Below the pieces are notes generated by a model. That model was not told the DNA's origin. It saw only the letters and a program-made list of their open reading frames with translations, and did not search any database. Below, in pieces: positions 7,658-26,767 of a stretch of 64,000 bases of DNA (position 1 is the stretch's first letter; each line of letters starts with the position of its first letter). The DNA is from a virus. Its lineage: Duplodnaviria > Caudoviricetes. The position numbers and the translations under genes are program-made. Location of the stretch: the IMG/VR virus record IMGVR_UViG_3300022074_005559. One strand, 5' to 3'.

Positions 7658-7686
7658 TTGACTTTCCACCCAAACTTAACTATAAT
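7658..7686 (+). promoter_or_regulatory. sigma70-type promoter
   Basis: TTGACT (7658-7663), 17 nt, TATAAT (7681-7686); SD AAGGA before ATG 7717. Confidence 0.7.
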
Positions 7687-7716: not shown

Positions 7717-8448
7717 ATGAAAGATTATCTACTCGACATTGTCAAGCATACACATTCGCTTGGCTTCATTAGTCTTGTAAAAGTTACAGGCACAGACAAA
7801 ACCACAACAATAGAAGGACTTGCAGAAGACCGAAGTGTTATTTTGCAAGCAACTACAAAGACTCCAGTAGCAGACTTTATTGGCACATTTGGTATGCCTA
7901 ATCTGGACAAACTTGGCGTCATCCTGCGTATCCCAGAATACAACGAAGATGCTAAGATCAGTATCAACACACAAGAGCGCAACGGTGAAGATGTACCAGT
8001 TGGCATTCATTTTGAAAATGCCGGCGGAGACTTTAAGAACGATTATCGCTTTATGGCAAGCGAGATCATTAATGAAAAGCTCAAGAGCGTGAAGATGCGA
8101 GCAGTTAACTGGGGCATTGAGTTTGAACCTAGTGTTGCAAGCATTCAACGTTTCAAGTTTATGATTAGTGCTAATAGCGAAGAAACAACATTCCTTGCTA
8201 AGACAGAAGGCACAGACCTTAAGTTCTTCTTTGGCGACCACAGTACACACGCAGGTAACTTTGTGTTCCAACATGATGTAGGTGGTGCTATTACACGTGG
8301 ATGGGCATGGCCCGTTGAACAAGTCAGCAAGATTCTCAGCCTCGGCGGTGATACAACATTTAAGTTCAGTGATGACGGTGTTGCTGAGATTGTTGTAGAC
8401 AGTGGACTTGCAGAGTATCGCTACTTGCTTCCTGCACAAAGCAAGTAA
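7717..8448 (+). CDS. DNA polymerase sliding clamp (gp45/PCNA-like)
   Basis: 243 aa with alternating beta/alpha pattern, close to the polymerase gene, ending YRYLLPA as in clamp C-termini. Confidence 0.7.
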   Translation: MKDYLLDIVKHTHSLGFISLVKVTGTDKTTTIEGLAEDRSVILQATTKTPVADFIGTFGMPNLDKLGVILRIPEYNEDAKISINTQERNGEDVPVGIHFENAGGDFKNDYRFMASEIINEKLKSVKMRAVNWGIEFEPSVASIQRFKFMISANSEETTFLAKTEGTDLKFFFGDHSTHAGNFVFQHDVGGAITRGWAWPVEQVSKILSLGGDTTFKFSDDGVAEIVVDSGLAEYRYLLPAQSK

Positions 8449-9065
8449 TGGCAGACTTCTTTCGTCCTCGTTCTTATGCTATGAAAGTTGATCCAACGCT
8501 GAAATATGCGTGGATCAACATTCCTAAAAACGGAAGTAGTTTCATACAAAAAGTACTAGACGACAATGCTTGGAATGATGTACCTGATGACTTAATTAAC
8601 AGCATTGCAGAATCTCCTAGCATAAAGAAACTTGTTGTGTTACGCGATCCTGTAGAACGCTGGATCAGTGGCTTTGCACAATGTATGAGTGATCAACACA
8701 TTGACATATTGGGTTTGCTAGACAATGATAGATTTAAAAGCACTGTTATGCTGAATCCAGTATATGATGATCATACAGAATATCAACATAGATTTATAGG
8801 TAATGCACAAAACTTAGTGTATATCTATATGGCAAAAAAAAGACCTAACGAATTTTATAGACTACTTAGTGCTTGGATTAGAAAAACTGGCGGTGTTGCT
8901 GATTTTGATAACTGGCGAGATCCTGTAAACCCTGCAAAAAATAACGCTAATAAACTTGCAATCTGCAATAAACTTCGTGAACAGTTTTACAAAGACAGAA
9001 CATTAAAAGACTTACACAAGAAAGACTACGAACTGCTTAACAAATATGACAAATTTACCAACTAA
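8448..9065 (+). CDS. sulfotransferase family protein (Sulfotransfer_2-like)
   Basis: 5'-PSB-like IPKNGSSFI and 3'-PB-like VVLRDPVERWISG motifs. Confidence 0.75.
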   Translation: MADFFRPRSYAMKVDPTLKYAWINIPKNGSSFIQKVLDDNAWNDVPDDLINSIAESPSIKKLVVLRDPVERWISGFAQCMSDQHIDILGLLDNDRFKSTVMLNPVYDDHTEYQHRFIGNAQNLVYIYMAKKRPNEFYRLLSAWIRKTGGVADFDNWRDPVNPAKNNANKLAICNKLREQFYKDRTLKDLHKKDYELLNKYDKFTN

Positions 9066-10548
9066 CTTAACAGCAAATCAAAACGACTACGCTGTATTTT
9101 TGCCAGCACTCAGTACATTCTATGCACTGTTTGTAGGCAGACAACGCAGAGGTCTACTGCCTTATGATGAAAATCTAAAAGCAAGTGGCACACCTTACAT
9201 TGATTCTGCACGTCTCCCACAGGGGCTGCCGCATGGTGTAGAAGGTCTGAACTGGCTTGCACCCGAAGGACTATGGAAGTACAAGTGGAGCCTACACAGT
9301 GCTGGACATGCTAGTTTGGATCTTGAAAAAGACCTGTATCGCGAAGATATGTATCGTGTACGCAATAGAGAAACCAGTTGGCTGCTAGGCGACTCAGGTG
9401 GCTTTCAGATTGGTAAAGGCAAGTGGGAAGGTGATTGGAGAGCTGGCAGTGGTTGTCCACAAGCACAAAAGAAGCGTGAAGGTGTGCTGCGTTGGATGGA
9501 CAAGTTCATGGACTATGGCATGATTTTGGATATTCCTGCCTGGGTAGACAGATCGCCAGAAGGCAGTGCTGCTAGTAAGATCAGCAGTTATCAAGAAGCC
9601 GCAGATGGCACAAAGTACAACAACGAATACTTTATTAAACACAGAGACGGTAGTTGTAAGTTTCTAAATGTGCTACAAGGCGAAAACTTTGCTCAAGCAG
9701 ATGACTGGTATGAGCAAATGAAACACTTTAGTGACCCTAAACAATATCCAGATGCACACTTTAATGGCTGGGCAATGGGCGGGCAAAACATGTGTGATCT
9801 GCATCTTGCACTACGCCGTGTTGTTATCCTTGGACATGATGGATTACTAGAAAAGGGCAAGCAAGACCTCATGCACTTCTTGGGCACCAGTAAACTAGAA
9901 TGGGCAATGGTACTTACTGCTATACAACGCGGTATTCGCAAGCAGTTCAATGAGAACTTTACTGTAACATTTGACTGTGCAAGTCCTTTCCTTGCTACAA
10001 GCAATGGCACACAGTACACAGGCTACAGACTTGACCACGAGGACAAGTGGAGTTACATTATGGAAAAGTCTCCAGATGATAAAGCACTACATGCAGACAC
10101 TACTCCATATGACGATTATTGTAGTAAACTCTATGACAACTGGATGCCTAGTCCACTCTCATCAATGATGAAACTAAATGACATTACTGTTTATAGTCCT
10201 ACATGTGTAAACCGTATGGGCGAACAAACAAACACTAGTTGGGATAGTTTCAGTTATATGCTGATGATGAATCATAATGTTTACACACATTTACGCAGTG
10301 TGCAAGAAGCAAATCGAGTATATGATGAGGGCAAGTATCCGTATATGTTAGTGAATGACACATTCGATAAACAAGAAGTAAAAGAGGTTATTGCTAGAAT
10401 CTTTGAAATAGATGATCGAGATAAACAACTACAAATGATTGATGATCATCAACGTCTTTGGATGCGTGTAGTAGGTACACGAGGACATGTTGGTAAAAAG
10501 AGTGTGAACAGTAGCGCACAGTTCTTTAGTTTGTTTGAGGAAGCGTAA
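9046..10548 (+). CDS. dpdA: DpdA-like 7-deazaguanine DNA transglycosylase (TGT fold)
   Basis: TGT motifs in order: LGDSGGFQ, MILD, VLQG, AMGG, MHFLG, TFDCASP, NHNV; no CxCxxC zinc site; same genome region as folE/queD/queE. Confidence 0.75.
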   Translation: MTNLPTNLTANQNDYAVFLPALSTFYALFVGRQRRGLLPYDENLKASGTPYIDSARLPQGLPHGVEGLNWLAPEGLWKYKWSLHSAGHASLDLEKDLYREDMYRVRNRETSWLLGDSGGFQIGKGKWEGDWRAGSGCPQAQKKREGVLRWMDKFMDYGMILDIPAWVDRSPEGSAASKISSYQEAADGTKYNNEYFIKHRDGSCKFLNVLQGENFAQADDWYEQMKHFSDPKQYPDAHFNGWAMGGQNMCDLHLALRRVVILGHDGLLEKGKQDLMHFLGTSKLEWAMVLTAIQRGIRKQFNENFTVTFDCASPFLATSNGTQYTGYRLDHEDKWSYIMEKSPDDKALHADTTPYDDYCSKLYDNWMPSPLSSMMKLNDITVYSPTCVNRMGEQTNTSWDSFSYMLMMNHNVYTHLRSVQEANRVYDEGKYPYMLVNDTFDKQEVKEVIARIFEIDDRDKQLQMIDDHQRLWMRVVGTRGHVGKKSVNSSAQFFSLFEEA

Positions 10549-11423
10549 TGAAGGCACTTATTGTTGGCTTAGGGATTGGCGAACTTTATCGTAGTATCTA
10601 CGAAAGCAAGTTGTGGGAAGTTACTACAGTTGACACACACAAGCCTGCAGACTATTGGGACATAGAGCAAGTACAAGGTGAGTTTGATGTTGCACACATT
10701 TGTACTCCAAACTTTACACATGAAAGTATTGCTCGTACTATTGCTCCAATGTGTAAGATTGTATTTGTAGAAAAGCCAGGCTTATGCACAGCAGAAGATT
10801 GGGAAAGCCTGGTTCATACATTTCCACAAACACGTTTTGCAATGGTGAAAAACAATCAGCATCGCAATAACCTAGCAGACATTTATGTGCATGCTCGTAG
10901 CAGTGATGAGATTATTATCAACTGGCACAACTATAATCGTGTTCCAAGTCCAGGCAGTTGGTTTACAGAACGTGACAAAGCATGGGGTGGCGTAAGCAGA
11001 GACTTAATGCCTCATTGTTTAAGTTGGGTACAGATATTTGAGCCAGAGTTTAGTGAGCTAGCGTTTTTCAGTGCTAACACACATCAGCACTATGACTTAG
11101 ATACAGTTGGAAGTACAGACTATGGAACAATAGATCCATACGGAATCTACGACGTAGATGATCAAGCAGACATTGTTTTTAGTAACAAGTGGCACAAGTA
11201 CACTTGCACTACAAGTTGGAAGAATCCTGTTGGCGATAAGATTTGCTTAGAGTTTTATAAACAAGGTAACCTTACATATACAGAGCCACTAGGACTGTGT
11301 CCAGAAGATGCATATGAAAAAATGATTGACACAGCAGTAAACAACTTGTATAATGATACATACTGGAGCAGTGAGCTTCACAGAGATATTTGGATTCATC
11401 AACAACTAGAGTTGTTAAAATAA
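10548..11423 (+). CDS. Gfo/Idh/MocA family oxidoreductase
   Basis: GLGIG Rossmann motif, ICTPNFTH, VFVEKP, DLMPH. Confidence 0.85.
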   Translation: MKALIVGLGIGELYRSIYESKLWEVTTVDTHKPADYWDIEQVQGEFDVAHICTPNFTHESIARTIAPMCKIVFVEKPGLCTAEDWESLVHTFPQTRFAMVKNNQHRNNLADIYVHARSSDEIIINWHNYNRVPSPGSWFTERDKAWGGVSRDLMPHCLSWVQIFEPEFSELAFFSANTHQHYDLDTVGSTDYGTIDPYGIYDVDDQADIVFSNKWHKYTCTTSWKNPVGDKICLEFYKQGNLTYTEPLGLCPEDAYEKMIDTAVNNLYNDTYWSSELHRDIWIHQQLELLK

Positions 11424-12343
11424 TGACTAGACTATTATACACCACAGGCGATGGTGTATTTAAAGAAACTGAATACGTTATTGCTCCGTTACAAGACAAT
11501 GAGATTCGTGTTCGAGCTGTGATGACAGGAGTTTGTCGCAGTGATGTTGCCATGATGAATGGCGACTTTGGCCCACTTCCGTTAGGCATGCAAGGACATG
11601 AAGGACTTGCACAGGTTATGGAGTTGGGCAGTGGTGTAAGAGATGTACAGATCGGCGACTTTGTAGCGACTAGAGGCGAGCCGGCATATGCTGATGAGTA
11701 TAATGTACGATCTTTTGAATATGTTGTCGTTCCAGGTAAAGATCCTAAATGGATACTGGAACCTATTGCATGTGGAATCAACTGTGTGTTACAATCGCAG
11801 ACTGCAATAGATTCGCTCTGTGCGAATACAACAACACCACTGCCCCGTGCGGTGATAATCGGCAGTGGATTTCTTGCAAAGATTGTGTTGCGCACATTCT
11901 CTATTCTTTATCCTAACATAAGTGTAGACGTAGTTGGTTCTAGTAATGAAGAATATTTCAGCGAGAATGGTAGTCCACTGTTGGTTGATTTCGACGGCAC
12001 TTACGATATTGTAGTAGACCTTAAAGAAGACGACCGTGTATTCAACACAGACTGTGTAAATGAAAACGGGCTTGTTATTATGGCAACTGAAAAGCCAAAT
12101 GGTGTGGACACAACCTTTAGTCACTTCTTATGGAAGGCTATCACAATGGTGTTCCCAAGTCCAAGAGCTCCAACATTTTATGATGCAATGCTATTGGCTA
12201 GAGATTGGCAAATGGATGACTATTTAGATGTTGAGGACTTTTGGACAAAAGGCTACAATAGAGACACAGAATGGCAGCAAGCATTTGAAGATGCAAACAA
12301 TCGTACAGGCAACTATGGTAGAGGTTATATTCAATGGGACTAG
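11423..12343 (+). CDS. medium-chain (Zn-type) alcohol/sugar dehydrogenase
   Basis: GVCRSD, GHEG, GDFV, EPIAC, GSGF motifs; TAATG start at 11423. Confidence 0.85.
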   Translation: MTRLLYTTGDGVFKETEYVIAPLQDNEIRVRAVMTGVCRSDVAMMNGDFGPLPLGMQGHEGLAQVMELGSGVRDVQIGDFVATRGEPAYADEYNVRSFEYVVVPGKDPKWILEPIACGINCVLQSQTAIDSLCANTTTPLPRAVIIGSGFLAKIVLRTFSILYPNISVDVVGSSNEEYFSENGSPLLVDFDGTYDIVVDLKEDDRVFNTDCVNENGLVIMATEKPNGVDTTFSHFLWKAITMVFPSPRAPTFYDAMLLARDWQMDDYLDVEDFWTKGYNRDTEWQQAFEDANNRTGNYGRGYIQWD

Positions 12344-12846
12344 ATACTAACAAGCGACAGGAAGTTGTATACTTCACAGGCACAGAAGTAGAACACACAG
12401 CAATGTATGGTGAGCAAACACTGTTTGTTGTTGGGGTACAACCTTGTAATGAAATACAACAACGAGCAGATGCACATGGTATCAAACATTTGTACTTTGG
12501 TACAAGTCAAAGTTTTGCACCTGAGAGCGAAGCAGATTGGACTGCTTGGGAAAACATGATCAAAGCATTGCTTAGTGCAGGCTATTGGTGTACACTAGAC
12601 TATGATGTATTCTATGTTAAAGAAGTATTAGAACTTGGATTTGATGAACACAATAACTTCATTAACATGATTTCAGTTAAACTACCATATATTAAGCAGT
12701 TCAACTACAATGCTACACTGAAGTTAGATGACAACACTTGGGGAGATACTAACTCGGGTGTTTGGTGCCATAGCATACACAGTTTAATGGATCGCCGTGT
12801 GTACACTGATTGGAAAGATTATACAGGAGATCAATCCGTTGACTAG
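12334..12846 (+). CDS. conserved hypothetical phage protein in the dpdA cluster
   Basis: 170 aa, phage-like codon usage, coupled to its neighbours; motifs FTGTEVEHT, HLYFG, GVWCH; function unknown. Confidence 0.7.
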   Translation: MGLDTNKRQEVVYFTGTEVEHTAMYGEQTLFVVGVQPCNEIQQRADAHGIKHLYFGTSQSFAPESEADWTAWENMIKALLSAGYWCTLDYDVFYVKEVLELGFDEHNNFINMISVKLPYIKQFNYNATLKLDDNTWGDTNSGVWCHSIHSLMDRRVYTDWKDYTGDQSVD

Positions 12847-13438
12847 ACTGTTTGCATGTGGAGATAGTTTTACATACGGACATGAACTAAGTGATTGTCC
12901 TAGTAACAACCATCCAACACACAGTATGCTGACTTACAGTGCTTTGACTGCAAAACATTTGGGTACCGAATATGTTTGTTTAGCAGAAGGTATGGCGGCA
13001 AATAATAGTATACTAAAACAGATTGAAAGTGCTGATATCACTGCAAATGATACTGTATTAGTTATGTGGACTTTTGCACAACGTTATGCACTTATGTTAG
13101 ATCAAGGATACTACACATTAGGACTAGACGAACATAAGTGGTGGTGGACAAATGTAGACCAAAGTTCAGAGCAGTGTTTGAATAGGACTACGGATTTTAT
13201 ACTTGCAGGACATCAGATCCTAAATAAAATAGGATGCAACTACATTTTTTTGTGTAATAATATTGAACTACAAAACAAAATACAGTATAATACAAGTTAT
13301 ATAGATACAGAAAGATGGATGTTTCTAGATAAACATGACGAAATGATTAATCACGATTCACCACATACATTACACCCCGGAGACAGTGTACACAATAGTC
13401 TCTATAAACAACTAGTAAAGGCAAAACTAAATGGCTGA
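12839..13438 (+). CDS. SGNH/GDSL hydrolase-like protein
   Basis: Block I ACGDSFTYG, later GMAANNSI, and C-terminal HP; TTG start chosen at 12839. Confidence 0.6.
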   Translation: MTRLFACGDSFTYGHELSDCPSNNHPTHSMLTYSALTAKHLGTEYVCLAEGMAANNSILKQIESADITANDTVLVMWTFAQRYALMLDQGYYTLGLDEHKWWWTNVDQSSEQCLNRTTDFILAGHQILNKIGCNYIFLCNNIELQNKIQYNTSYIDTERWMFLDKHDEMINHDSPHTLHPGDSVHNSLYKQLVKAKLNG

Positions 13439-13913
13439 AATAGATAACATGATGCTTAACGCAATGCGCGAAGATGCAATGAAAACACAGTTAACAAAAA
13501 GCAAAAGAAGTATTTGGGTAACATTCCAAAAGGAAGGTGTACACAAGTATCCTGCTGCTTTAGAAGATCCTAAACTAGCAACAGGAGATTGGGATGATGT
13601 ATCGTTTCTTGGGTATCCTCATCGTCATATGTTTCATTTCCGGGTGTCAATCGAAGTGTACCACGATGATAGAGAAATCGAGTTCATCCAGTTCAGCAGA
13701 TGGTTGCAAAGACTGTACGATATGGGAACAGGTGAAGGAGTCGACGGTGCCGTGGATAAAGTGCTCGATCTTGACTACAAGTCGTGTGAAATGATTGCAG
13801 ATGATTTATTCTTAGAGATCCGTAAAAAGTACGGAGATCAAAGAGAAGTAACTATTGAAGTAAGCGAAGATGGTGAGAATGGTTGCACTGTCTTTTTTCC
13901 TAGAGCCAGATAA
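13431..13913 (+). CDS. dpdL: T-fold QueD paralogue, probable CDG decarboxylase (DpdL-like)
   Basis: LGYPHRHMF fits the LxxxHRHxF signature I recall for DpdL rather than QueD CxxxHGH; SCEMIA and VSEDGENG T-fold motifs; a canonical queD is present elsewhere. Confidence 0.65.
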   Translation: MAEIDNMMLNAMREDAMKTQLTKSKRSIWVTFQKEGVHKYPAALEDPKLATGDWDDVSFLGYPHRHMFHFRVSIEVYHDDREIEFIQFSRWLQRLYDMGTGEGVDGAVDKVLDLDYKSCEMIADDLFLEIRKKYGDQREVTIEVSEDGENGCTVFFPRAR

Positions 13914-13924
13914 GGAGATATACC

Positions 13925-14185
13925 GTGGCTGTAAAATATAATAAAGAAGCATACGACAAGGTCTGGGCTGACCTTGATGATTTTAAACGCTTTTGTAAAG
14001 AGTTTGGATGGGCATATGACGAAGCCGATTTGTATCGTGCTGAAGCACCTGCTTATGCAGAGTATACTCGCTTTAAGCAAGGTACTCGTATTCCTAAAAA
14101 CTGGATGCGGGATGCCAAGTTCCGTTTGAACCAGTATCGCGATAATAATCAAAAGGGTGGTCGCTACAACAGCGGTCGTAGGTAA
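13925..14185 (+). CDS. hypothetical protein
   Basis: 86 aa, SD AAGGAG then GTG start. Confidence 0.7.
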   Translation: MAVKYNKEAYDKVWADLDDFKRFCKEFGWAYDEADLYRAEAPAYAEYTRFKQGTRIPKNWMRDAKFRLNQYRDNNQKGGRYNSGRR

Positions 14186-14187
14186 CA

Positions 14188-15276
14188 ATGGGTACTGTTT
14201 ATATTGTGGACATCGAAGCGGTTGACACTCGCTACACAAAGCAATGGAAGGAACATCTTCCTGATCAGCTTCAACGTGCTCTAATACAGGATACCGCTAT
14301 TCTTGCAGAAGTTGAAGTGATTAGCGGCGGAGATGTTCCACAAGCAACTACACCTGGTGCTTTCCTAAACTTTGGAGGCACAAATGTATACAAGAGCAAT
14401 CAACTACAACAGATTGCTACACTGTTCTGTGAGGGCAAAGTTCGTAACGGAGATTACTTCTTGTATACGGATGCTTGGAACCCTACTGTTATCCAGTTAC
14501 GCTACATGGCTGAACTCCTTGGAGTTGACATACGCATTGGCGGCTTGTGGCATGCTGGTAGTTATGATCCACAGGACTTCCTAGGTAGATTAATAGGCAA
14601 TAAACCTTGGGTACGTTTTGCTGAACAAAGTATGTTTGAATGTTATGATGATAACTTCTTTGCTAGTCAGTTTCATATTGATATGTTCAGCAAAACCTTT
14701 AGTCTACAAAACAGAATCGTATCTGTACAGGATAAAATCAAACGTGTTGGTTGGCCCATGGAATATCTTAATACAGGGCTTGAACAATATAAAGGTATGG
14801 AAAAGCGTGATCTTATTCTTTTCCCACATCGTATTGCTCCAGAGAAACAACCTGAAATCTTCCGTGATCTTGCAGACAGTATGCCAGAGTATGAGTTTGT
14901 TGTGTGCCAAGAGAAAGAGCTTAGTAAAGTAGAATATCATAATCTACTAGGCGAAGCAAAGATGGTGTTCAGTGCAAACTTACAAGAAACACTGGGTATT
15001 AGTTGGTATGAAGGTGCTGTTGTAGGCGCACTGCCTATGGTTCCTAATAGACTAAGTTATAGTGAAATGGCGGACAGTGATTTCTTATATCCTAGTGAAT
15101 GGACTGAAAGTTATGATAAATACTTACAGCATAAACAAGACCTTATGCGTTTTATCAAAGACTATATGGAAAACTACACAAAGTTTCTCCCAGCACTCCA
15201 TACACAGGTTAAAAAACTAGAAACTGAATTCTTCAGTGGCAAAGCACTTTATAACAATATCCGAGAAAGTATCTAA
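14188..15276 (+). CDS. GT-B fold glycosyltransferase (GT4-like)
   Basis: C-terminal FPHRIAPEKQ and SANLQETLGISWYEG (the E-x7-E nucleotide-sugar motif); N-terminal WHAGSYD. Confidence 0.75.
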   Translation: MGTVYIVDIEAVDTRYTKQWKEHLPDQLQRALIQDTAILAEVEVISGGDVPQATTPGAFLNFGGTNVYKSNQLQQIATLFCEGKVRNGDYFLYTDAWNPTVIQLRYMAELLGVDIRIGGLWHAGSYDPQDFLGRLIGNKPWVRFAEQSMFECYDDNFFASQFHIDMFSKTFSLQNRIVSVQDKIKRVGWPMEYLNTGLEQYKGMEKRDLILFPHRIAPEKQPEIFRDLADSMPEYEFVVCQEKELSKVEYHNLLGEAKMVFSANLQETLGISWYEGAVVGALPMVPNRLSYSEMADSDFLYPSEWTESYDKYLQHKQDLMRFIKDYMENYTKFLPALHTQVKKLETEFFSGKALYNNIRESI

Positions 15277-16505
15277 TGAATATAGCATTTATAGGCACAG
15301 GCAAACTAGGCATGCCTTGTGCTGAAGAAATAGCAAAAGCAGGTCATAGTGTAACAGGATATGATGTTGCTAAAGTAAAAAGTGAACTAGTTGAAGTCAA
15401 AGATACTATTGCAGAAGCAGTTAAGTTTGCAAAGATAGTTTTTGTAGCAGTTCCTACTCCGCATGATCCGGCATATGATGGTCGTGCTCCTACTGCACAT
15501 TTAGAACCAAAAGACTTTAGTTACGACATCGTTAAAGATGTACTGCGTGAGTGTGATAGAGTAATGAATCCTGCGCAGATGATTGTGCTTATTAGCACAG
15601 TACTACCTGGCACAGTTCGCAGAGAACTAGAACCTATTGTTACTAACACACGCTTTGTATACAATCCATATCTTATTGCTATGGGCAGTGTTGCTTGGGA
15701 CTTTGTAAATCCTGAAATGGTTATGATCGGTACAGAAGATGGTGACGAAACTGGAGATGCAAAAGAGCTAGTAAACTTTTATAAAACTGTTATTGAGAAT
15801 GATCCTAGATATGTAGTTGGTACTTGGGATGAATGCGAATGTATCAAAGTTTTTTATAACACATTTATCAGTACAAAACTTGGACTAGCAAATATGATAC
15901 AGGATGTTGCAATGAAGCAAGGCAATATCAATGTCGATGTAGTTACTGATGCACTTGCGAAAAGTACCAAACGCATTATGGGACCGCAGTATATGACTGC
16001 TGGCATGGGCGATGGCGGTGCTTGTCACCCACGTGATAACATTGCACTACGTTGGATGGCACAGGAACTTGGCTTAGGGTATGATATTTTTGATGCTATT
16101 ATGAATGCTCGTGAGATTCAAGCAAAGAATCTAGCAGAGTTTTTAGTAGCGCAAGCAAAGGAACACGATCTACCTGTGCTCATACACGGTGAAGCATACA
16201 AGCCAGATGTACCGTATAAAGACGGTAGTTACAGTATACTGGTAGAACATTATTGTAGAGAACTTGGTTATCATCCTATTATGGTAGATCCTCATACAAG
16301 TCCTCAGCGTGGTCCTTTCAAAGCAGTTGTACTACTTGGTCACAGTAATCAAGTAACCTACAAATACACAGAAAAAGAAACTACACAAACTTTCTATTGT
16401 CTGTTCGAAGAAGGCAGCGTAATCGTTGACCCATGGAGACTATATCGTAATGAAGAAAACAAGTATAAAATCATCCATTACGGAAACACACGACAGGTGG
16501 CATAA
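15276..16505 (+). CDS. ugd: UDP-glucose/GDP-mannose dehydrogenase family
   Basis: GTGKLG, VAVPTP, ISTVLPG, YNPY, IKVFYN, GDGGAC, AYKPD. Confidence 0.9.
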   Translation: MNIAFIGTGKLGMPCAEEIAKAGHSVTGYDVAKVKSELVEVKDTIAEAVKFAKIVFVAVPTPHDPAYDGRAPTAHLEPKDFSYDIVKDVLRECDRVMNPAQMIVLISTVLPGTVRRELEPIVTNTRFVYNPYLIAMGSVAWDFVNPEMVMIGTEDGDETGDAKELVNFYKTVIENDPRYVVGTWDECECIKVFYNTFISTKLGLANMIQDVAMKQGNINVDVVTDALAKSTKRIMGPQYMTAGMGDGGACHPRDNIALRWMAQELGLGYDIFDAIMNAREIQAKNLAEFLVAQAKEHDLPVLIHGEAYKPDVPYKDGSYSILVEHYCRELGYHPIMVDPHTSPQRGPFKAVVLLGHSNQVTYKYTEKETTQTFYCLFEEGSVIVDPWRLYRNEENKYKIIHYGNTRQVA

Positions 16506-17010
16506 AGGGCATATAGAACCTTTTTGGACCGCTAAAAGTTACAAAAAACTAAACTATCAGTTGTTTCCTTTTCCCAACGAAAAAGATCTAGTGATTTGGA
16601 GACGGCAAGGCTATGTACATCCTAGCACTCATTATAGCGGCATGCTTTGCGATATGAGAGAAACTCAAGCAGAATGGAACGACGATATTATCCAGTGGTT
16701 TGCAGATACATACAGTGCTAAAGACGTAGGTACAAGTTACTATCGTATGGGCACAGATGTTATATTGCCTACGCATCAAGATACATATTTTAGATACAGA
16801 GACCTATATAACACTGCATTAGAAGATTGTTTTCGTGTCATTATTTTTTTAGCAGACTGGAGTAGTGGGCACATGTTTGAAATAGACAATGCACCTGTTA
16901 CAAACTGGAAAGCAGGCGATTATGTTTATTGGGAAAGCGATGTGCCTCATATGGCGGCAAACATGGGTCTTGTAAAAAGATATACCCTGCAACTTACAGG
17001 TCACAAATGA
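16450..17010 (+). CDS. 2OG-Fe(II) oxygenase / cupin-like protein
   Basis: HxD (PTHQD) and distal His (PHMAAN) plus a C-terminal R-x-T-L-Q strand; start uncertain. Confidence 0.65.
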   Translation: MKKTSIKSSITETHDRWHKGHIEPFWTAKSYKKLNYQLFPFPNEKDLVIWRRQGYVHPSTHYSGMLCDMRETQAEWNDDIIQWFADTYSAKDVGTSYYRMGTDVILPTHQDTYFRYRDLYNTALEDCFRVIIFLADWSSGHMFEIDNAPVTNWKAGDYVYWESDVPHMAANMGLVKRYTLQLTGHK

Positions 17011-17612
17011 CATTAACTTATGATACACTAAAGCAGTTTGAAAGTGTACTAAGTGATTATACAGGCGCACCTTATGTTGTGCTAACTGACTGCTGCACAC
17101 ATGCATTAGAACTTTGTTTTAGATACAAAAATCCAGGTCCTGTAACATGCAATGCGCACACATATCTCAGTGTTCCTATGATGTTACACAAGTTAAATAT
17201 TCCTTTCTTTTGGGATCATGAACCGTGGGAATATGAATACAGGTTAGCACCAAGCAACATCTGGGATAGTGCAAGAGGACTAAAACAAGGAATGTATCGT
17301 GCAGGAGCATTACAATGCCTTAGTTTTGGAAACAGTAAAAGATTAGAACTACAAGCCGGCGGTGCTATTCTTACAAGTAACAAACAGGATTATATTGCCT
17401 TAAAGCGTATGGCATATGATGGCAGAGATTTAGATATCACGCCGTGGCAATCACAAGAATCATTTAGCGTAGGATATCATTATGGCATGAGATTAGAAAC
17501 TGCCAAAAGAGGTATTGAAATGCTAACAAATGGTAACCTTAAAGACTTACAAACACAAGCAGTAACTTATCCTGATTGCAGTCTAATAAAGATTGACACA
17601 TTACCTAAATAA
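17007..17612 (+). CDS. short DegT/DnrJ/EryC1/StrS-like PLP aminotransferase
   Basis: CCTHALEL, WDSA, LSFGNSKRL..AGGAIL (Schiff-base Lys position), GYHY; only about 201 aa. Confidence 0.7.
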   Translation: MTLTYDTLKQFESVLSDYTGAPYVVLTDCCTHALELCFRYKNPGPVTCNAHTYLSVPMMLHKLNIPFFWDHEPWEYEYRLAPSNIWDSARGLKQGMYRAGALQCLSFGNSKRLELQAGGAILTSNKQDYIALKRMAYDGRDLDITPWQSQESFSVGYHYGMRLETAKRGIEMLTNGNLKDLQTQAVTYPDCSLIKIDTLPK

Positions 17613-17621
17613 TCATATAAT
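17593..17621 (+). promoter_or_regulatory. sigma70-type promoter for folE operon
   Basis: Perfect TTGACA (17593-17598), 17 nt, TATAAT (17616-17621). Confidence 0.8.
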
Positions 17622-17660: not shown

Positions 17661-18347
17661 ATGACAACAAGTAACGTAATAACACAACGCCTACGCAATG
17701 CAGGTGCTAGGTATTGGGCAAGTGACAACATTGCCTCTTATCTATATGAAGGTGAAAAAGAACAGCTCATAGACGAACTTACTACTAAGTTTGAAGATGT
17801 ACTGGATAGCCTTATTATTGATCGTGCAAACGATCCTAACAGCAATGACACAGGCAGACGCCTTGCAAAGATGTACATCAACGAATTAATGAGCGGTCGT
17901 TATGATCCTATGCCCAACGCAACTGCATTTCCTAATCATGTCGAAGAAGGCTACAAAGGCATGCTGGTGGTGCGCAGTGAACTTAAGAGTGTGTGTTCGC
18001 ATCATCACCAGCCTGTGAGTGGCGTGGCATACATTGGTATTATTGCTGCAGAAAAACTTATTGGACTAAGCAAGTATACACGCATTGCACAATGGTGTGC
18101 TAGACGCGGTACACTACAAGAAGAACTTTGCAACGATATTGCTCGTGAGATTATGGATGCAACCGGCAGTGAAAATGTAGGTGTTTACATCCAAGCAACA
18201 CACGGTTGTTGTGAGAATAGAGGCATTATGGCACATAGCAGTCTAACACAAACTACTGTGCTAGAAGGTGCATTTACTGAAGATGCAGGTACAAAGAAAG
18301 AGTTTTTCGATAACATTAAACTCCAACAAGAGTTTGCACCTAGATAA
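17661..18347 (+). CDS. folE: GTP cyclohydrolase I
   Basis: SVCSHH, IGLSKYTRI, QEEL, HGCCENRG. Confidence 0.95.
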   Translation: MTTSNVITQRLRNAGARYWASDNIASYLYEGEKEQLIDELTTKFEDVLDSLIIDRANDPNSNDTGRRLAKMYINELMSGRYDPMPNATAFPNHVEEGYKGMLVVRSELKSVCSHHHQPVSGVAYIGIIAAEKLIGLSKYTRIAQWCARRGTLQEELCNDIAREIMDATGSENVGVYIQATHGCCENRGIMAHSSLTQTTVLEGAFTEDAGTKKEFFDNIKLQQEFAPR

Positions 18348-19375
18348 TGTATACAGATCTAAGTAACTACTTGTGCGGAAAAACACAACTACCTGTTCTA
18401 CCAAGTTCGATAGATATTGACTTGACTAACGTGTGTAATCAGGATTGTTTTTATTGCAATAGTGCAGACTTTAGAGCAAACTTCTTAACTACGCCAAACA
18501 AAGAAAGATTTATCGAACTTATAGATAGACTTGCAGATTGGCGTAGTCATACACCTTTGAGTGTAGGCACTGTGCGTAGCATTAACTTTACTGGCGGTGG
18601 GGAGCCTACTGTACACCCTCACTATCACGAAATCGTAGAGTACGCTATCGACAAAGGTTTTCTTGTAACTATGATTACTAATGCAAGTAAACTTGATAGA
18701 TTAGCAAAACACTTACCAAGAGAAAAAGCACAGCGTATCATTTGGATTGGTGTTGATGTAGACAGTGCAGTTGATACCACTTACGAACGTGTTAGACGTA
18801 GTATGACAACTTTTGATATGCTACCTAGAGTCAAAGAAAATATTAAACTTGCAGTAGATGCAGGTATTAATGTTGATATCAAAGCTCTGCTTATGAAAAA
18901 TAACACAAGCGATGCAGAACTACAAGCATTGTTTGATATGGTTAAAGACACAGGTGCAAGACAGTTACACATAAGACCTTTGTTTGATTTAGAAACACAA
19001 AAAATATTCGAAGTTACAGAAAGTCTAAAGCAAAAGATTAAAGCAATATCTACACTAACTAACGTAGAGTACAACTTGCCCGAAAACAGGAAAGAAACTA
19101 GAACCTATAGTAAATGCCATCAAATGTTTTTGTATACAATCTTTGCCGCTAATGGAGATGTAAATGTTTGTTGCGAAAGCAGAGGTGATCGTAGTTTTAC
19201 TATTGGCAACTGGCTAGAGCAAGATCCAAGAGATTTTTGGATGGGCGAACGGCATATGCAAGTATACAATAAAACTAACACTATGCTTTGCCCGCCTTGT
19301 AAACCTAACAAGATTAATAACATCATCCAGAAAGACATAGACAACGACGCTTTGCTTGAAAGGCAAATAATGTGA
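18347..19375 (+). CDS. radical SAM/SPASM protein
   Basis: CNQDCFYC, TGGGEP, ITNA; C-terminal CHQ...VCC...CPPC. Confidence 0.9.
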   Translation: MYTDLSNYLCGKTQLPVLPSSIDIDLTNVCNQDCFYCNSADFRANFLTTPNKERFIELIDRLADWRSHTPLSVGTVRSINFTGGGEPTVHPHYHEIVEYAIDKGFLVTMITNASKLDRLAKHLPREKAQRIIWIGVDVDSAVDTTYERVRRSMTTFDMLPRVKENIKLAVDAGINVDIKALLMKNNTSDAELQALFDMVKDTGARQLHIRPLFDLETQKIFEVTESLKQKIKAISTLTNVEYNLPENRKETRTYSKCHQMFLYTIFAANGDVNVCCESRGDRSFTIGNWLEQDPRDFWMGERHMQVYNKTNTMLCPPCKPNKINNIIQKDIDNDALLERQIM

Positions 19376-20298
19376 TTGTTGCTCGTAGTCCTTTGCGTGT
19401 TAGTTTTGCCGGCGGAGGTAGTGACCTTTCGCCGTTTGTAGATACCTATGGCGGTAGTAATCTTAATGCTACAATAGATAGATATGCATACTGTACAATA
19501 GAACCAGCAGACACTTATTCAACAAACGTACCTGAAATAGTGGACCATTGTGTGGACTATGTTTGCCCTCAAAGACCTCGCAGTAAAATCATACTACACA
19601 GCGACACAGAACAAGGCAGTGGACTTGGAAGCAGTAGTGCATTGGTTGTTGCATGCATGAAAGCACTAGGATATCAAGGCACACAAAAAGAGCTTGCTGA
19701 AGATGCAATCTATGTAGAACGTAAGTTGTGCGGATTTCCTGGTGGTAAACAAGATCAGTTTGCTACAGTATACGGCGGATTTAACTATATAGAGTTTGAC
19801 AAAGACGGCACTAATACTATCAGTCAGATTCATCTAAGCGACGAAGCCAAACGTAAACTTAACTATAGCCTAATATTATACAACATTGGTGTTAGCAGAA
19901 CAAACAACACAGTGCTAGATCGTAATATAGAAGGTCTTAAAAATAACACTGCAATGATTGAAAGCACAAAAGAGCTTGTGCAAAACTGTAGCGAAACACT
20001 TCAGTATTTGGTAACCGGAAACCTAAAGAAACTTGCATACAGTTTTGAAAAGAACTGGGAGATCAAAGCAGATTTGCATAGTGGTATTACTAGTAATCCG
20101 TTCGTCGAAGTCAAAGATACAGGAATCAAAAATGGTGCGTTAGGTAGTAAAATATGCGGTGCCGGAGGTGGTGGTCATATGATATTTGTAGTAGATCCGT
20201 TAGAACGACACAGCCTACTTAAAGCATTACAACCTTTGCCTGGACACGTTGAACATTTTTCGTTTACAAATACAGGATGTGAAAGTTGGGAACAATAG
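19372..20298 (+). CDS. GHMP sugar kinase (HddA-like heptose-7-phosphate kinase)
   Basis: PLRVSFAGGGSD, GSGLGSSSA, GKQDQ, KICGAGGGG. Confidence 0.85.
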   Translation: MIVARSPLRVSFAGGGSDLSPFVDTYGGSNLNATIDRYAYCTIEPADTYSTNVPEIVDHCVDYVCPQRPRSKIILHSDTEQGSGLGSSSALVVACMKALGYQGTQKELAEDAIYVERKLCGFPGGKQDQFATVYGGFNYIEFDKDGTNTISQIHLSDEAKRKLNYSLILYNIGVSRTNNTVLDRNIEGLKNNTAMIESTKELVQNCSETLQYLVTGNLKKLAYSFEKNWEIKADLHSGITSNPFVEVKDTGIKNGALGSKICGAGGGGHMIFVVDPLERHSLLKALQPLPGHVEHFSFTNTGCESWEQ

Positions 20299-20636
20299 AA
20301 GAACATCCTAAGGGCTGGGGCAGAGAACTTTGGATTGTAAACACCAATGGATATTGCGGAAAGATATTAGAGTTTGATGTAGGTAAACGTTGTAGTTTTC
20401 ACTATCACTTGCTAAAAGATGAGACATTTTATCTTCAAGAAGGCAGCATAGAACTACATACTAGTTGGGAAGATGACTTATCCAATGCAGAAAAAACCGT
20501 GTTAAAGCCAGGTGATAAGTATCATATACCACAAGGACTTAGACATCAAATGGTTGCACTAGAATCAAGTAAACTGTTTGAGTTTAGCACTACACATTAT
20601 GAATCAGATAGCTATCGAGTAGTCAAAGGCGACTAA
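20286..20636 (+). CDS. cupin (sugar isomerase-like)
   Basis: KGWGRELW, SFHYH..KDETFY, LRH cupin motifs. Confidence 0.75.
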   Translation: MGTIEEHPKGWGRELWIVNTNGYCGKILEFDVGKRCSFHYHLLKDETFYLQEGSIELHTSWEDDLSNAEKTVLKPGDKYHIPQGLRHQMVALESSKLFEFSTTHYESDSYRVVKGD

Positions 20637-23353: not shown

Positions 23354-23382
23354 GTTGACAAATCTTGCATTTTCGCTATACT
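23353..23382 (+). promoter_or_regulatory. GGTTGACA-N16-TATACT promoter
   Basis: TTGACA 23355-23360, 16 nt, TATACT 23377-23382, followed by TATAGTAA and SD AGGAG. Confidence 0.7.
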
Positions 23383-26590: not shown

Positions 26591-26767
26591 ATGATAAGCA
26601 AACCAGCAATAGTATTCGCACTAGAAAGCGAAATAAAACACGCAGAGTCATGCCTGCAACCGCATGACACAGGACACATAAACACAGCCATTGGTTGGAT
26701 GCAACATCGTGTCCGCGAACTTAAACAGGAACTAAAGGAACAACATGAAAAAGACATACATCAGTGA
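26591..26767 (+). CDS. small hypothetical protein (58 aa, not in ORF track)
   Basis: MISKPAIVFALESEIKHAESCLQPHDTGHINTAIGWMQHRVRELK...; fills the gap between the subtilase and the PRTase. Confidence 0.65.
   Translation: MISKPAIVFALESEIKHAESCLQPHDTGHINTAIGWMQHRVRELKQELKEQHEKDIHQ

What the first reader, a model, noticed from the sequence alone, without database searches (positions are those of the whole stretch)
9046..16505. DpdA operon coupled to sugar redox enzymes and a glycosyltransferase: candidate new glycosylated/hypermodified 7-deazaguanine DNA base
Seen: dpdA is translationally coupled (TAATG overlaps) to a Gfo/Idh/MocA oxidoreductase and an MDR dehydrogenase, and the run continues through an unknown 170-aa protein, an SGNH-like protein, a DpdL-like T-fold protein, a GT-B glycosyltransferase and UDP-glucose dehydrogenase. 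I found no sigma70-type promoter within this run; the nearest upstream one drives clamp-sulfotransferase-dpdA. Established: DpdA inserts 7-deazaguanine bases into DNA, and the phage derivatives I know (dPreQ0, dPreQ1, dG+, dADG, dDG, dCDG, methyl- and formyl-preQ1) carry no sugar. GT-B enzymes glycosylate bases in T-even phages. Inference: this operon may attach a sugar (possibly a uronic acid, then oxidised, acylated or sulfated) to a deazaguanine or another base, in a transcript shared with the replication clamp.
Basis: partly seen in the sequence, partly recalled or inferred. Interest (0 to 1): 0.85.

Follow-up and report, generated by a model that had tools for sequence, protein, structure and literature searches.

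The report
Sugar enzymes inside phage deazaguanine operon
An uncultured marine jumbo phage carries the known genes for swapping guanine in its DNA for 7-deazaguanine. Wedged among them are a sugar-transferring enzyme and two sugar-type dehydrogenases that travel with these genes in hundreds of phages, which points to an undescribed sugar-bearing purine in DNA that could be tested in cultured phages such as PA5oct.

Summary
The 500-aa protein has no Pfam, PHROG or NCBIfam hit, but it folds (pLDDT 92) as a tRNA-guanine-transglycosylase barrel and keeps the catalytic motifs, so it is DpdA-like. The 160-aa protein has the published DpdL motif. The 362-aa protein is a GT4-type GT-B glycosyltransferase with an invariant EX7E motif. 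FolE, QueD and QueE are also in the window.

One claim is wrong. A perfect TTGACA-17-TATAAT promoter lies inside the run at 11326-11354, and it is conserved in the closest relatives.

- **Glycosyltransferase:** it lies next to a DpdA-like gene in 49 of 49 informative viral contigs, in all 22 cultured-phage records that hold it (PA5oct group, Phosso, ACP17, BUDD, BCSR5) and in bacterial islands.
- **Gfo and MDR:** they sit between dpdA and a conserved 170-aa unknown in 74 of the 80 best MDR loci. In PA5oct the three form a separate Gfo-MDR-u170 module.

It came out negative or weak for the rest. The UDP-sugar dehydrogenase also occurs in cyanophage glycan clusters without DpdA. The sulfotransferase, aminotransferase and amidinotransferase are rarer add-ons.

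Best reading (confidence about 0.5): a glycosylated 7-deazaguanine DNA modification with lineage-specific sugar tailoring. The chemistry is untested. I found no paper describing it. This scan has noted the same theme on other DNA many times.

The parts
7658..7686 (+). Promoter-like site (11/12 match) upstream of the clamp gene.
7717..8448 (+). Sliding-clamp-like protein (243 aa). It always precedes dpdA in relatives.
   Evidence: phrog_12062, E 3e-31. The Phosso homologue is annotated as a sliding clamp. Synteny.
8448..9065 (+). Sulfotransferase-like protein (205 aa). It is a rare accessory insert.
   Evidence: Pfam Sulfotransfer_2, 25.1 bits against a cut-off of 22. Present in 5 of 80 MDR loci and in none of the 80 GT loci.
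9046..10548 (+). DpdA-like DNA guanine transglycosylase (500 aa) with a TGT-fold TIM barrel.
   Evidence: AF2 pLDDT 92. Foldseek top 50 are all TGT, E about 4e-7. D116, S117, G119, H277 and D310 are invariant; D162 is nearly invariant. hhalign to ACP17 gp123 gives prob 96%.
10548..11423 (+). Gfo/Idh/MocA-type NAD(P) oxidoreductase (291 aa).
   Evidence: Pfam PF01408, 32.4 bits. It lies between dpdA and MDR in 78 of 80 MDR loci. PA5oct gp123 is 28% identical.
11326..11354 (+). Perfect sigma70-type promoter (TTGACA, 17 nt, TATAAT) inside the end of the Gfo gene, ahead of MDR.
   Evidence: It is 12/12 conserved in L006-L008.
11423..12343 (+). Zn-type medium-chain dehydrogenase (MDR, 306 aa).
   Evidence: Pfam ADH_N, E 3.5e-10. 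457 IMG/VR relatives; the 80 best all lie in the dpdA cluster. PA5oct gp122 is 34% identical.
12334..12846 (+). u170: a conserved core protein of unknown fold (170 aa).
   Evidence: Present in 72 of 83 GT loci and 76 of 80 MDR loci. PA5oct gp121 is 47% identical and ACP17 gp122 matches at E 8e-10. No family or PDB hit.
12797..13438 (+). DUF6071/GDSL-like (SGNH-like) protein. It is a rare accessory; the start codon is uncertain.
   Evidence: ESM Atlas features score 0.96 to viral DUF6071/Lipase_GDSL clusters. Found in only 2 related loci.
13431..13913 (+). DpdL-like QueD paralogue (160 aa).
   Evidence: phrog_17812, E 7e-32. Motif LGYPHRHMF matches the published LxxxHRHxF. Present in 82 of 83 GT loci.
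13925..14185 (+). u86: a small basic protein (pI 9.5) just upstream of the GT.
   Evidence: Present in 44 of 83 GT loci. pI. Function unknown.
14188..15276 (+). GT4-type GT-B glycosyltransferase (362 aa). It is a core partner of DpdA and DpdL.
   Evidence: AF2 pLDDT 88. VIA Z 24.7-20 to GT4 enzymes; T4 AGT Z 17.5. EX7E (E267, E275) is invariant. Synteny.
15276..16505 (+). Nucleotide-sugar 6-dehydrogenase (Ugd-like, 409 aa). Accessory.
   Evidence: Pfam PF03721 and PF00984. phrog_9148, E 2e-93. It also occurs without DpdA in cyanophages.
16450..17010 (+). u194: an unassigned protein, by eye possibly cupin/2OG-like. The start codon is uncertain.
   Evidence: No Pfam hit. Co-occurs with Ugd and DegT in a few relatives.
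17007..17612 (+). Short DegT-like aminotransferase (about 201 aa).
   Evidence: Pfam DegT_DnrJ_EryC1, E 1.3e-9, N-terminal third only. Present in 20 of 80 MDR loci.
17593..17621 (+). Perfect sigma70-type promoter ahead of folE.
17661..18347 (+). FolE (GTP cyclohydrolase I).
   Evidence: Pfam, E 2.4e-38.
18347..19375 (+). Radical SAM enzyme with a SPASM/twitch domain. It is not QueE.
   Evidence: Pfam. Weak NCBIfam hits to MoaA, viperin, twitch and BlsE.
19372..20298 (+). HddA-like GHMP sugar kinase.
   Evidence: NCBIfam NF049969, E 2e-51, below the curated cut-off. Pfam GHMP.
20286..20636 (+). Small cupin (WbuC-like).
20636..21511 (+). Amidinotransferase/ADI-fold protein.
   Evidence: Weak Pfam ADI hit, E 1e-3, below the cut-off. 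The C-terminal GGGHHCCT motif was read by eye. Present in a few relatives.
21515..22804 (+). NCS2/AzgA-type purine permease.
   Evidence: Pfam Xan_ur_permease, E 3e-50.
26745..27221 (+). Gpt-like purine phosphoribosyltransferase. It is a core cluster member in relatives.
   Evidence: Pfam Pribosyltran. NCBIfam xanthine PRT, weak. Present in 68 of 83 GT loci.
27863..28342 (+). QueD (6-carboxytetrahydropterin synthase).
   Evidence: Pfam PTPS, E 3e-15. TIGR03367.
28254..29297 (+). QueE (7-carboxy-7-deazaguanine synthase). The start codon is uncertain.
   Evidence: Pfam Radical_SAM. Five QueE NCBIfam models at E 1e-11 to 2e-7.

Best explanation
This is the 7-deazaguanine DNA-modification cluster of an uncultured marine jumbo phage, in an extended form.

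What the homology indicates:
- FolE, QueD and QueE make 7-carboxy-7-deazaguanine from GTP.
- A DpdL-type QueD paralogue is present and no QueC was seen. This matches the published phiST-type route to 7-deazaguanine.
- A TGT-fold DpdA-like enzyme is there to exchange guanine in DNA for the deazapurine.

What I infer:
- A GT4-type retaining glycosyltransferase is an obligatory companion of DpdA and DpdL in this phage group. I infer that it transfers a sugar from a nucleotide sugar onto the deazaguanine, either once it is in DNA or just before insertion. The result would be a glycosylated deazapurine base.
- Gfo/Idh/MocA, MDR and the conserved 170-aa protein form a dedicated three-gene module of the same pathway. 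It would carry out redox tailoring of the sugar or of its attachment point.
- Ugd, the short DegT-like aminotransferase, the amidinotransferase, the HddA-like kinase, the cupins and the sulfotransferase are lineage-specific add-ons that would diversify the donor sugar. The analogy is the way T-even phages vary the sugars on hydroxymethylcytosine.

The likely payoff is evasion of restriction and of modification-sensing nucleases.
For: DpdA-like identity:
- AF2 pLDDT 92 and TGT as all top-50 PDB matches.
- Invariant DSGGFQ and Asp residues.
- Profile alignment to TGT at the same motifs.
- hhalign prob 96% to ACP17 gp123.

DpdL motif. FolE, QueD and QueE.

GT is a real GT4:
- Fold, Z 20-25.
- Invariant EX7E across homologues down to 26% identity.
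- 9 of 19 family members hit Glycos_transf_1.

GT linkage to DpdA:
- At least 599 IMG/VR relatives.
- 49 of 49 loci with enough flank have a DpdA-like gene close by.
- All 22 cultured-phage records with a GT homologue are deazaguanine-cluster phages, including 24-27% identical homologues in BUDD and BCSR5 that directly abut dpdA.
- Bacterial islands carry YhhQ-GT-DpdA or DpdA-DpdL-GT.
- The GT is as conserved as FolE and QueE (median identity 71% against 75%) and more conserved than polB (63%) or DpdA (56%).

Gfo-MDR-u170:
- 457 IMG/VR MDR relatives. In the best 80 the order is always dpdA-Gfo-MDR-u170-dpdL-GT.
- Among 50,697 phage records, Gfo and MDR homologues occur only in the 11 PA5oct-like phages, as gp123-gp122-gp121.

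PA5oct DNA resists G-containing restriction sites and is targeted by hypermodification-sensing END nucleases, and its nucleoside has not been identified (PMC12191111).

dDG could not be reconstituted from dpdL plus dpdA of phiST or ACP17 alone (PMC10516641).

There are precedents for sugars on 7-deazapurines. HuiG N-glycosylates a preQ0 derivative (10.64898/2026.04.15.718813). From my own knowledge, QTMAN mannosylates queuosine.
Against: - No chemical data exist. 7-Deazaguanine itself has no hydroxyl, so the acceptor atom is unknown.
- phiST makes plain dDG with DpdL and DpdA3 and has no GT homologue detectable at E 1e-3. The GT is therefore not needed for dDG as such.
- The nearest structural relatives of the GT act on small molecules or glycans (MshA, BshA, sucrose-phosphate synthase). 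T4 AGT is only rank 38.
- The GT is acidic, pI 5.0.
- Ugd occurs in DpdA-free phages.
- The sulfotransferase, SGNH-like protein, amidinotransferase and kinase are rare, and the locus is also an insertion hot spot holding unrelated genes such as a permease and a subtilase.
- An internal promoter splits the run.
Confidence: 0.5

Rival explanations
1. The GT works on a free small molecule of the pathway rather than on DNA. The acceptor would be the free deazapurine base or a pterin intermediate. The product would be a glycosylated base that DpdA then inserts, or a protected or solubilised intermediate that never reaches DNA.
For: - The top structural neighbours are small-molecule GT4 enzymes (BshA, MshA, sucrose-phosphate synthase). 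Tetrahydrobiopterin glucosyltransferases appear at Z 19.3 and at Foldseek rank 37.
- HuiG glycosylates a free preQ0 derivative.
- The GT is acidic.
Against: - In the Pseudooctadecabacter island the GT sits with only a YhhQ-type transporter and DpdA, with no pterin-pathway genes. A pterin acceptor is therefore unlikely there.
- The GT never appears without DpdA in the loci examined, although DpdA appears without the GT.
Confidence: 0.15
2. Gfo, MDR and u170 act on the base and not on a sugar. They would convert the C7 carboxyl or formyl group into a hydroxymethyl or similar handle. That handle would be the final modification or the acceptor for the GT.
For: - The three genes lie between dpdA and dpdL, not beside the GT.
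- u170 is a core gene even where Gfo and MDR are absent.
- In PA5oct the trio sits 26 kb from the GT.
- MDR enzymes interconvert alcohols and carbonyls.
Against: - Most GT-bearing clusters lack Gfo and MDR, so the GT's acceptor cannot depend on them.
- Gfo/Idh/MocA enzymes mostly act on sugars and cyclitols.
- Neither family is known to reduce carboxylates.
Confidence: 0.15
3. The sugar genes have nothing to do with DNA. The GT and the accessory enzymes would decorate host envelope glycans or virion proteins, and they sit here only because the region after the clamp is a hot spot for early genes.
For: - Ugd lies in a glycan-type cluster in cyanophage Bellamy.
- The window's locus also holds a permease, a subtilase and other unrelated inserts.
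- Several accessory genes are sporadic.
Against: - It does not explain why the GT abuts dpdA or dpdL in very different genomic settings: T4-like ACP17, Xanthomonas and Burkholderia jumbo phages, a Methylobacterium prophage-like element and a Pseudooctadecabacter island.
- It does not explain why Gfo and MDR homologues are confined to deazaguanine-cluster phages.
Confidence: 0.1

Closest known systems
DpdL-type 7-deazaguanine (dDG) system of Cellulophaga phage phiST (FolE, QueD, QueE, DpdL, DpdA3; PMC10516641)
   Same: - Both have FolE, QueD and QueE plus a QueD paralogue with LxxxHRHxF, and no QueC was seen.
- Both have a divergent TGT-fold transglycosylase that Pfam misses.
- Both clusters lie next to the polymerase genes.
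   Different: - phiST has no detectable homologue of the GT, and its DNA carries plain dDG.
- The cluster here adds GT, u170 and u86, a PRTase, and in a large subclade Gfo plus MDR.
- I could not establish which DpdA subfamily this protein belongs to. The only link is a profile match to ACP17 gp123.
T-even phage hydroxymethylcytosine glucosylation (T4 alpha- and beta-glucosyltransferases)
   Same: - A phage GT-B enzyme is encoded with base-modification genes.
- T4 AGT shares the fold (VIA Z 17.5, rmsd 4.5 over 307 residues).
- Lineage-specific sugar variation may be analogous.
   Different: - There is no sequence similarity, and generic GT4 enzymes match better (Z 20-25).
- The base is a purine analogue inserted by base exchange, not a pre-replicative hydroxymethyl pyrimidine.
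- No obvious hydroxyl acceptor is present.
tRNA-queuosine alpha-mannosyltransferase (QTMAN/GTDC1; Pfam QTMAN_N plus Glycos_transf_1)
   Same: - Both are GT4-type enzymes, and QTMAN puts a sugar on a 7-deazaguanine derivative in a nucleic acid.
- Bacterial QTMAN_N clusters are among the nearest structural neighbours in the ESM Atlas (TM 0.76-0.77).
   Different: - None of 19 family members hits QTMAN_N, even at E 10.
- Generic GT4 clusters match equally well or better (TM 0.72-0.81).
- QTMAN's acceptor is the cyclopentenediol of queuosine, which this pathway cannot make.
HuiG of huimycin biosynthesis (10.64898/2026.04.15.718813)
   Same: A glycosyltransferase acts on a 7-deazapurine made through the preQ0/CDG pathway. 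It shows that the exocyclic amine of such bases can be glycosylated.
   Different: It belongs to a secondary-metabolite pathway in actinomycetes, acts on a free base and has no DpdA. I did not test homology to the phage GT.
Nucleotide-sugar tailoring sets such as WbpA/WbpB/WbpE and aminocyclitol (streptidine) enzymes (own knowledge, not tested)
   Same: The window combines a 6-dehydrogenase, a Gfo-type oxidoreductase, a DegT-type aminotransferase, a kinase and an amidinotransferase.
   Different: All matches are far below the equivalog cut-offs. The aminotransferase is about half the normal length. No nucleotidyltransferase was found.

Membership tests
TGT/DpdA superfamily | TGT-type TIM-barrel fold | tested here: met
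   AF2 pLDDT 92, pTM 0.91. All top-50 Foldseek PDB matches are Z. mobilis TGT, prob 1.00, E 4e-7 to 7e-6.
TGT/DpdA superfamily | Catalytic and base-binding Asp residues in the DSGG(F/Y)Q, LD and FD motifs | tested here: met
   D116, S117, G119 and D310 are invariant and D162 is nearly invariant in 67 homologues. The profile aligns DSGGFQ, LD and QG with the TGT motifs. Assigning D310 as the nucleophile rests on my own knowledge of TGT.
TGT/DpdA superfamily | Match to the Pfam TGT model (PF01702) or a DpdA profile | tested here: not met
   No Pfam, PHROG or NCBIfam family at E 0.01. Profile against PDB sequences gives only E about 0.7-1 to TGT. The published DpdA3 and DpdA4 were also found only by HHpred.
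TGT/DpdA superfamily | Guanine exchange in DNA | not testable with these tools
   Needs biochemistry or nucleoside LC-MS.
DpdL (proposed CDG decarboxylase) | Signature LxxxHRHxF replacing QueD's CxxxHGH | tested here: met
   LGYPHRHMF in the 160-aa protein. The motif is as published in PMC10516641.
DpdL (proposed CDG decarboxylase) | Co-occurrence with FolE, QueD, QueE and DpdA, and absence of QueC | tested here: inconclusive
   FolE, QueD, QueE and DpdA are present. No QueC was found among the ORFs scanned, but minus-strand genes at 43.9-64 kb were not scanned and no whole genome is held.
GT4 retaining GT-B glycosyltransferases | Two-Rossmann-domain GT-B fold | tested here: met
   AF2 pLDDT 88. 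VIA Z 24.7-20 over about 300 residues to GT4 enzymes. Foldseek E 1e-9.
GT4 retaining GT-B glycosyltransferases | EX7E donor-site motif | tested here: met
   E267 and E275 are invariant in 19 homologues down to 26% identity.
GT4 retaining GT-B glycosyltransferases | Pfam Glycos_transf_1 match | tested here: inconclusive
   The window protein has no hit. 9 of 19 family members hit PF00534, best E 6.8e-12.
QTMAN/GTDC1 queuosine mannosyltransferases | QTMAN_N (PF12038) N-terminal domain | tested here: not met
   None of 19 members match at E up to 10. Structural similarity of TM 0.76-0.77 is no better than to generic GT4. GTDC1 is not in the Swiss-Prot top 30.
T4-type DNA glucosyltransferases (AGT/BGT) | Specific structural or sequence kinship, and a hydroxymethyl-pyrimidine pathway | tested here: not met
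   AGT is rank 38, Z 17.5, and BGT is not in the top 50. No sequence hit in PDB. No hydroxymethylase was seen in the ORFs scanned.
Gfo/Idh/MocA oxidoreductases | N-terminal NAD(P) Rossmann domain with the EKP motif, and a C-terminal alpha/beta domain | tested here: met
   PF01408, 32.4 bits against a cut-off of 24. The C-terminal domain scores 23.7 bits, below its cut-off of 27. VEKPG was read in the sequence.
Zn-dependent medium-chain dehydrogenases (MDR) | GroES-like ADH_N domain with Cys and GHE zinc ligands, and a Rossmann GxGxxA motif | tested here: met
   PF08240, 40.5 bits against a cut-off of 23.5. GVCRSD, GHEG and GSGFLA were read in the sequence. G58, E60, G147, S148 and G149 are invariant in 7 homologues.
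UDP-glucose/GDP-mannose dehydrogenase family | N-terminal NAD domain, central domain and C-terminal UDP-binding domain | tested here: inconclusive
   The N-terminal and central domains pass. No hit to a C-terminal domain model was returned. TIGR03026 scores 151 bits, below its cut-off of 189.8. phrog_9148, E 2e-93. Substrate unknown.

The most novel reading that the evidence does not exclude
A widespread group of marine, soil and clinical jumbo phages replaces guanine with a sugar-bearing 7-deazaguanine. The sugar may be linked to the ring carbon or to an exocyclic nitrogen. The sugar is diversified lineage by lineage: oxidised, aminated, amidinated or sulfated by the Gfo-MDR-u170, Ugd, DegT, amidinotransferase and sulfotransferase add-ons. 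This would be a purine counterpart of the sugar arms race known for hydroxymethylcytosine in T-even phages, and the first glycosylated purine analogue in any DNA.
Probability: 0.3. Interest if true: 0.9.

Novelty: new variant of a known kind. Interest (0 to 1): 0.75.

Why it matters
All eight 7-deazaguanine derivatives described in phage DNA up to 2023 are small and carry no sugar (PMC10516641). A glycosylated one would add a new chemical class of DNA base. It could explain why dDG could not be reconstituted from dpdL plus dpdA alone. It would also give a chemical identity to the unexplained G-modification of the therapy-candidate phage PA5oct, which END nucleases sense.

The gene set is very common: at least 599 GT and 457 MDR relatives in IMG/VR. 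It is also present in at least five groups of cultured phages, so the question can be tested directly by nucleoside mass spectrometry.

It also matters for sequencing and restriction-based handling of such phages, and as a source of enzymes for DNA glyco-engineering.

Tried and rejected
Searches that gave nothing:
- Sequence-only searches of the DpdA-like protein and the GT against PDB found nothing. Only folds and profiles helped.
- u170 stayed unassigned. It had no Pfam, PHROG or NCBIfam hit and no PDB profile hit. The ESM Atlas gave only sub-threshold leads to TIM-barrel glycosidase fragments.
- The small proteins at the same position in BUDD and BCSR5 matched u170 at best weakly (E 0.41 and 0.016).
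- The gene after the DpdA-like gene of Vibrio phage 2.275.O is not a GT homologue.
- A single-protein scan for Gfo in IMG/VR found nothing. I replaced it with an MDR profile scan.

Sources that were not available or not informative:
- No whole genome is held for this window, so absence of QueC, QueF or ArcS cannot be shown genome-wide.
- The supplement of PMC10516641 is not held. I could not confirm which DpdA subfamily ACP17 gp123 was assigned to.
- The PA5oct omics paper says nothing usable on these genes.

Approaches dropped:
- Isoelectric point as a hint of DNA binding is uninformative, because DpdA itself is acidic.
- The overall count of promoter-like sites does not exceed shuffles (42 against 47). 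Only the rare perfect matches were taken seriously.
- Both structure-prediction jobs went to DpdA and the GT, so u170, u86 and u194 were not folded.

Full report
**What is in the window.** The + strand from about 3.9 kb to 29.3 kb is a densely packed replication and nucleotide-metabolism block of a jumbo-phage-like genome. It reads as follows:
- B-family polymerase (3927-6641) and a clamp-like protein (7717-8448).
- A weak sulfotransferase (8448-9065).
- A 500-aa protein with no family hit (9046-10548).
- Gfo/Idh/MocA (10548-11423) and a Zn-type MDR (11423-12343).
- An unknown 170-aa protein, u170 (12334-12846).
- A DUF6071/GDSL-like protein (12797-13438).
- A phrog_17812 protein (13431-13913) and an 86-aa basic protein, u86.
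- A 362-aa protein with no family hit (14188-15276).
- A nucleotide-sugar dehydrogenase (15276-16505) and an unassigned protein.
- A short DegT-like aminotransferase.
- FolE, a radical-SAM/SPASM enzyme, an HddA-like kinase, a cupin, an amidinotransferase-like protein and a purine permease.
- Further on, a Gpt-like phosphoribosyltransferase, a 2OG oxygenase, QueD and QueE.

Gene junctions are mostly 1-56 nt overlaps, and four are TAATG.

**Is the 500-aa protein DpdA?** Profile libraries and a sequence search of PDB gave nothing. The protein does carry LGDSGGFQ, VLQG, WAMGG and TFDCASP. An exhaustive search gave 887 cluster representatives. In an alignment of 67 homologues, D116, S117, G119, P164, H277 and D310 are invariant and D162 is nearly so. 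The AlphaFold model is confident (pLDDT 92, pTM 0.91). All top-50 Foldseek matches in PDB are Zymomonas tRNA-guanine transglycosylase at probability 1.00. The family profile aligns its DSGGFQ, LD and QG motifs with those of TGT. It also matches ACP17 gp123 by hhalign (prob 96%, E 1.6e-9). I accept it as a DpdA-like DNA transglycosylase of a divergent subfamily. Which published subfamily it belongs to could not be settled.

**DpdL and the base pathway.** The 160-aa protein has LGYPHRHMF, which is the LxxxHRHxF signature published for DpdL. FolE, QueD and QueE are present and no QueC was seen. This is the phiST-type gene set that yields 2'-deoxy-7-deazaguanosine. No whole genome is held, so absence of QueC is shown only for the ORFs scanned.

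**The glycosyltransferase.**
- The 362-aa protein folds confidently as a GT-B enzyme (pLDDT 88).
- Its best matches are retaining GT4-type enzymes: sucrose-phosphate synthase Z 24.7, BshA 23.9, GlgM, PglA and PimB'.
- T4 alpha-glucosyltransferase shares the fold at Z 17.5 (rank 38). T4 beta-glucosyltransferase is not in the top 50.
- E267 and E275 (EX7E) are invariant in homologues down to 26% identity.
- 9 of 19 family members hit Pfam Glycos_transf_1. None hits QTMAN_N.
- QTMAN_N clusters are structural neighbours in the ESM Atlas (TM 0.76-0.77), but no closer than generic GT4.
- So it is a genuine GT4-like transferase. It is not a demonstrable member of the queuosine mannosyltransferase family.

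- The GT has at least 599 relatives in IMG/VR.
- In the 80 closest loci the order is polB, clamp, dpdA, u170, dpdL, (u86), GT, PRTase, folE, queE.
- Every one of 49 loci with enough flanking DNA has the DpdA-like gene nearby.
- All 22 cultured-phage records with a GT homologue are deazaguanine-cluster phages:
  - In the PA5oct group the GT (gp167) directly follows the DpdA-like gp168.
  - In Phosso the GT lies between the clamp gene and FolE/QueE.
  - In ACP17 the order is FolE, u170, DpdA, GT, DpdL, QueE.
  - In BUDD and BCSR5 the homologues are 24-27% identical and directly abut an annotated queuine tRNA-ribosyltransferase.
- Bacterial genomes show the same pairing. One is a Pseudooctadecabacter island with a YhhQ-type transporter, GT, DpdA-like gene and an integrase. 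Another is a Methylobacterium prophage-like element with DpdA, DpdL and GT.
- The reverse does not hold. Vibrio phage 2.275.O has the DpdA-like gene with QueC and QueF and no GT. No Cellulophaga (phiST) record was among the GT hits.
- The GT is as conserved as FolE and QueE and more so than the polymerase.

**Gfo, MDR and u170.**
- In the first sample Gfo and MDR looked rare (6 of 80 loci). That was a sampling effect.
- An MDR profile found 457 IMG/VR relatives. In the best 80 the order is invariably dpdA, Gfo, MDR, u170, dpdL, GT: Gfo in 78, u170 in 76, DpdA in 74, GT in 70, with the shortfall due to contig ends.
- Among 50,697 phage records, homologues of both enzymes occur only in the 11 PA5oct-like phages.
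- There they form gp123-gp122-gp121, that is Gfo-MDR-u170, 26 kb from the dpdA-GT-dpdL genes.
- u170 is 47% identical between PA5oct and this marine phage and is also ACP17 gp122. Its fold and function remain unknown.

**The other sugar genes.**
- Ugd homologues occur in cyanophages (Bellamy, 61% identity), a pelagiphage and Bacillus phage SP-15 without DpdA. In Bellamy the gene lies in a glycan-type cluster.
- In the relatives examined, Ugd, u194, DegT and the amidinotransferase appear in a minority. The sulfotransferase appears in 5 of 80 MDR loci. The SGNH-like gene appears in two loci.
- These are accessory inserts. Their link to the base modification rests only on position.

**Transcription.** A perfect TTGACA-17-TATAAT sits at 11326-11354, 69 nt before the MDR start. 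Only three perfect matches exist in the window: 11326, 17593 before folE, and 39267. The one at 11326 is perfectly conserved in the three closest relatives. The clamp promoter therefore probably serves clamp, sulfotransferase, dpdA and Gfo, and a second promoter serves MDR through the GT and beyond.

**Interpretation.** Three things are shown:
- A complete DpdL-type deazaguanine pathway.
- A genuine glycosyltransferase that is an obligate neighbour of DpdA.
- A dedicated Gfo-MDR-u170 module.

It is inferred that a sugar ends up on the deazapurine in DNA. Literature support is indirect:
- PA5oct DNA resists enzymes with G in their sites and is sensed by hypermodification-dependent END nucleases. 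Its nucleoside was not determined (PMC12191111).
- dDG could not be reconstituted with dpdL and dpdA alone (PMC10516641).
- A GT that glycosylates a preQ0 derivative exists in huimycin biosynthesis.

Six literature searches found no report of a glycosylated deazaguanine in DNA. The main weaknesses are the unknown acceptor atom, the small-molecule flavour of the nearest GT4 structures, and the fact that phiST makes plain dDG without this GT.

**Relation to earlier notes of this scan.** The same GT-in-dpdA-cluster theme has been noted on other DNA in at least 61 genomes, and several follow-ups reached a similar verdict. My tests agree on the linkage. They do not reproduce the QTMAN_N membership claimed in one of them. 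This report adds the Gfo-MDR-u170 module, its presence in PA5oct, the internal promoter, and the separation of core genes from accessory sugar genes.

**Verdict.** This is a real and widespread extension of a known DNA-modification system, and it can be tested directly in cultured phages. The chemistry is unproven.

Noticed in passing
window 21515-22804 and 26745-27221: The phage encodes an AzgA/NCS2-type purine permease and a Gpt-like purine phosphoribosyltransferase. The PRTase is a core member of the cluster in relatives (68 of 83 loci). It might recycle the guanine released by DpdA into GTP for FolE.
   Followed up: partly
window 23410-26589: A 1059-aa protein with a subtilase (Peptidase_S8) domain has its own strong promoter-like site at 23355. 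It lies between the deazaguanine genes.
   Followed up: no
window 36613-37506: A Dam-type N6-adenine DNA methyltransferase is encoded here. This would be a second DNA modification in the same phage.
   Followed up: no
L095 9410-16685 (Pseudooctadecabacter jejudonensis) and L093 7590-15259 (Methylobacterium sp. NFXW15): Isolate bacterial genomes carry the GT and DpdA-like pair on integrase- or recombinase-bearing elements. One has a YhhQ-type transporter, a second GT4 of the 'conflict system' type and a C5 DNA methylase nearby. The other has DpdL, VapE, endonuclease I and HNH genes.
   Followed up: partly
L086, L087, L089 (genome contigs): Contigs binned into Legionellales, Neomarinimicrobiota and Methanobacteriota MAGs carry this phage's polB-clamp-dpdA-GT block at 56-91% identity. 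They are almost certainly phage contigs mis-binned into those MAGs.
   Followed up: no
relatives, between PRTase and folE (for example L026 5246-5722, L038 8679-9107): A HIT-domain protein (47 loci) and an HhH-GPD glycosylase-like protein (10 loci) recur inside the cluster in relatives. They have no counterpart in the window.
   Followed up: partly
window 17007-17612: The DegT-like aminotransferase is only about 201 aa against a usual length of about 370. It keeps an SxxK motif that could hold the PLP lysine, and it is 69% conserved in relatives, so it is probably functional in a reduced form.
   Followed up: partly
window 2360-3214: A third radical-SAM protein (284 aa) lies upstream of the polymerase. 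In some relatives its homologue sits between the clamp gene and dpdA.
   Followed up: no
DpdA-like homologues P0123, P0131, P0180, P0185: Some homologues are 617-752 aa and match the query in 3 separate stretches. This suggests inteins or inserted domains in the transglycosylase.
   Followed up: no
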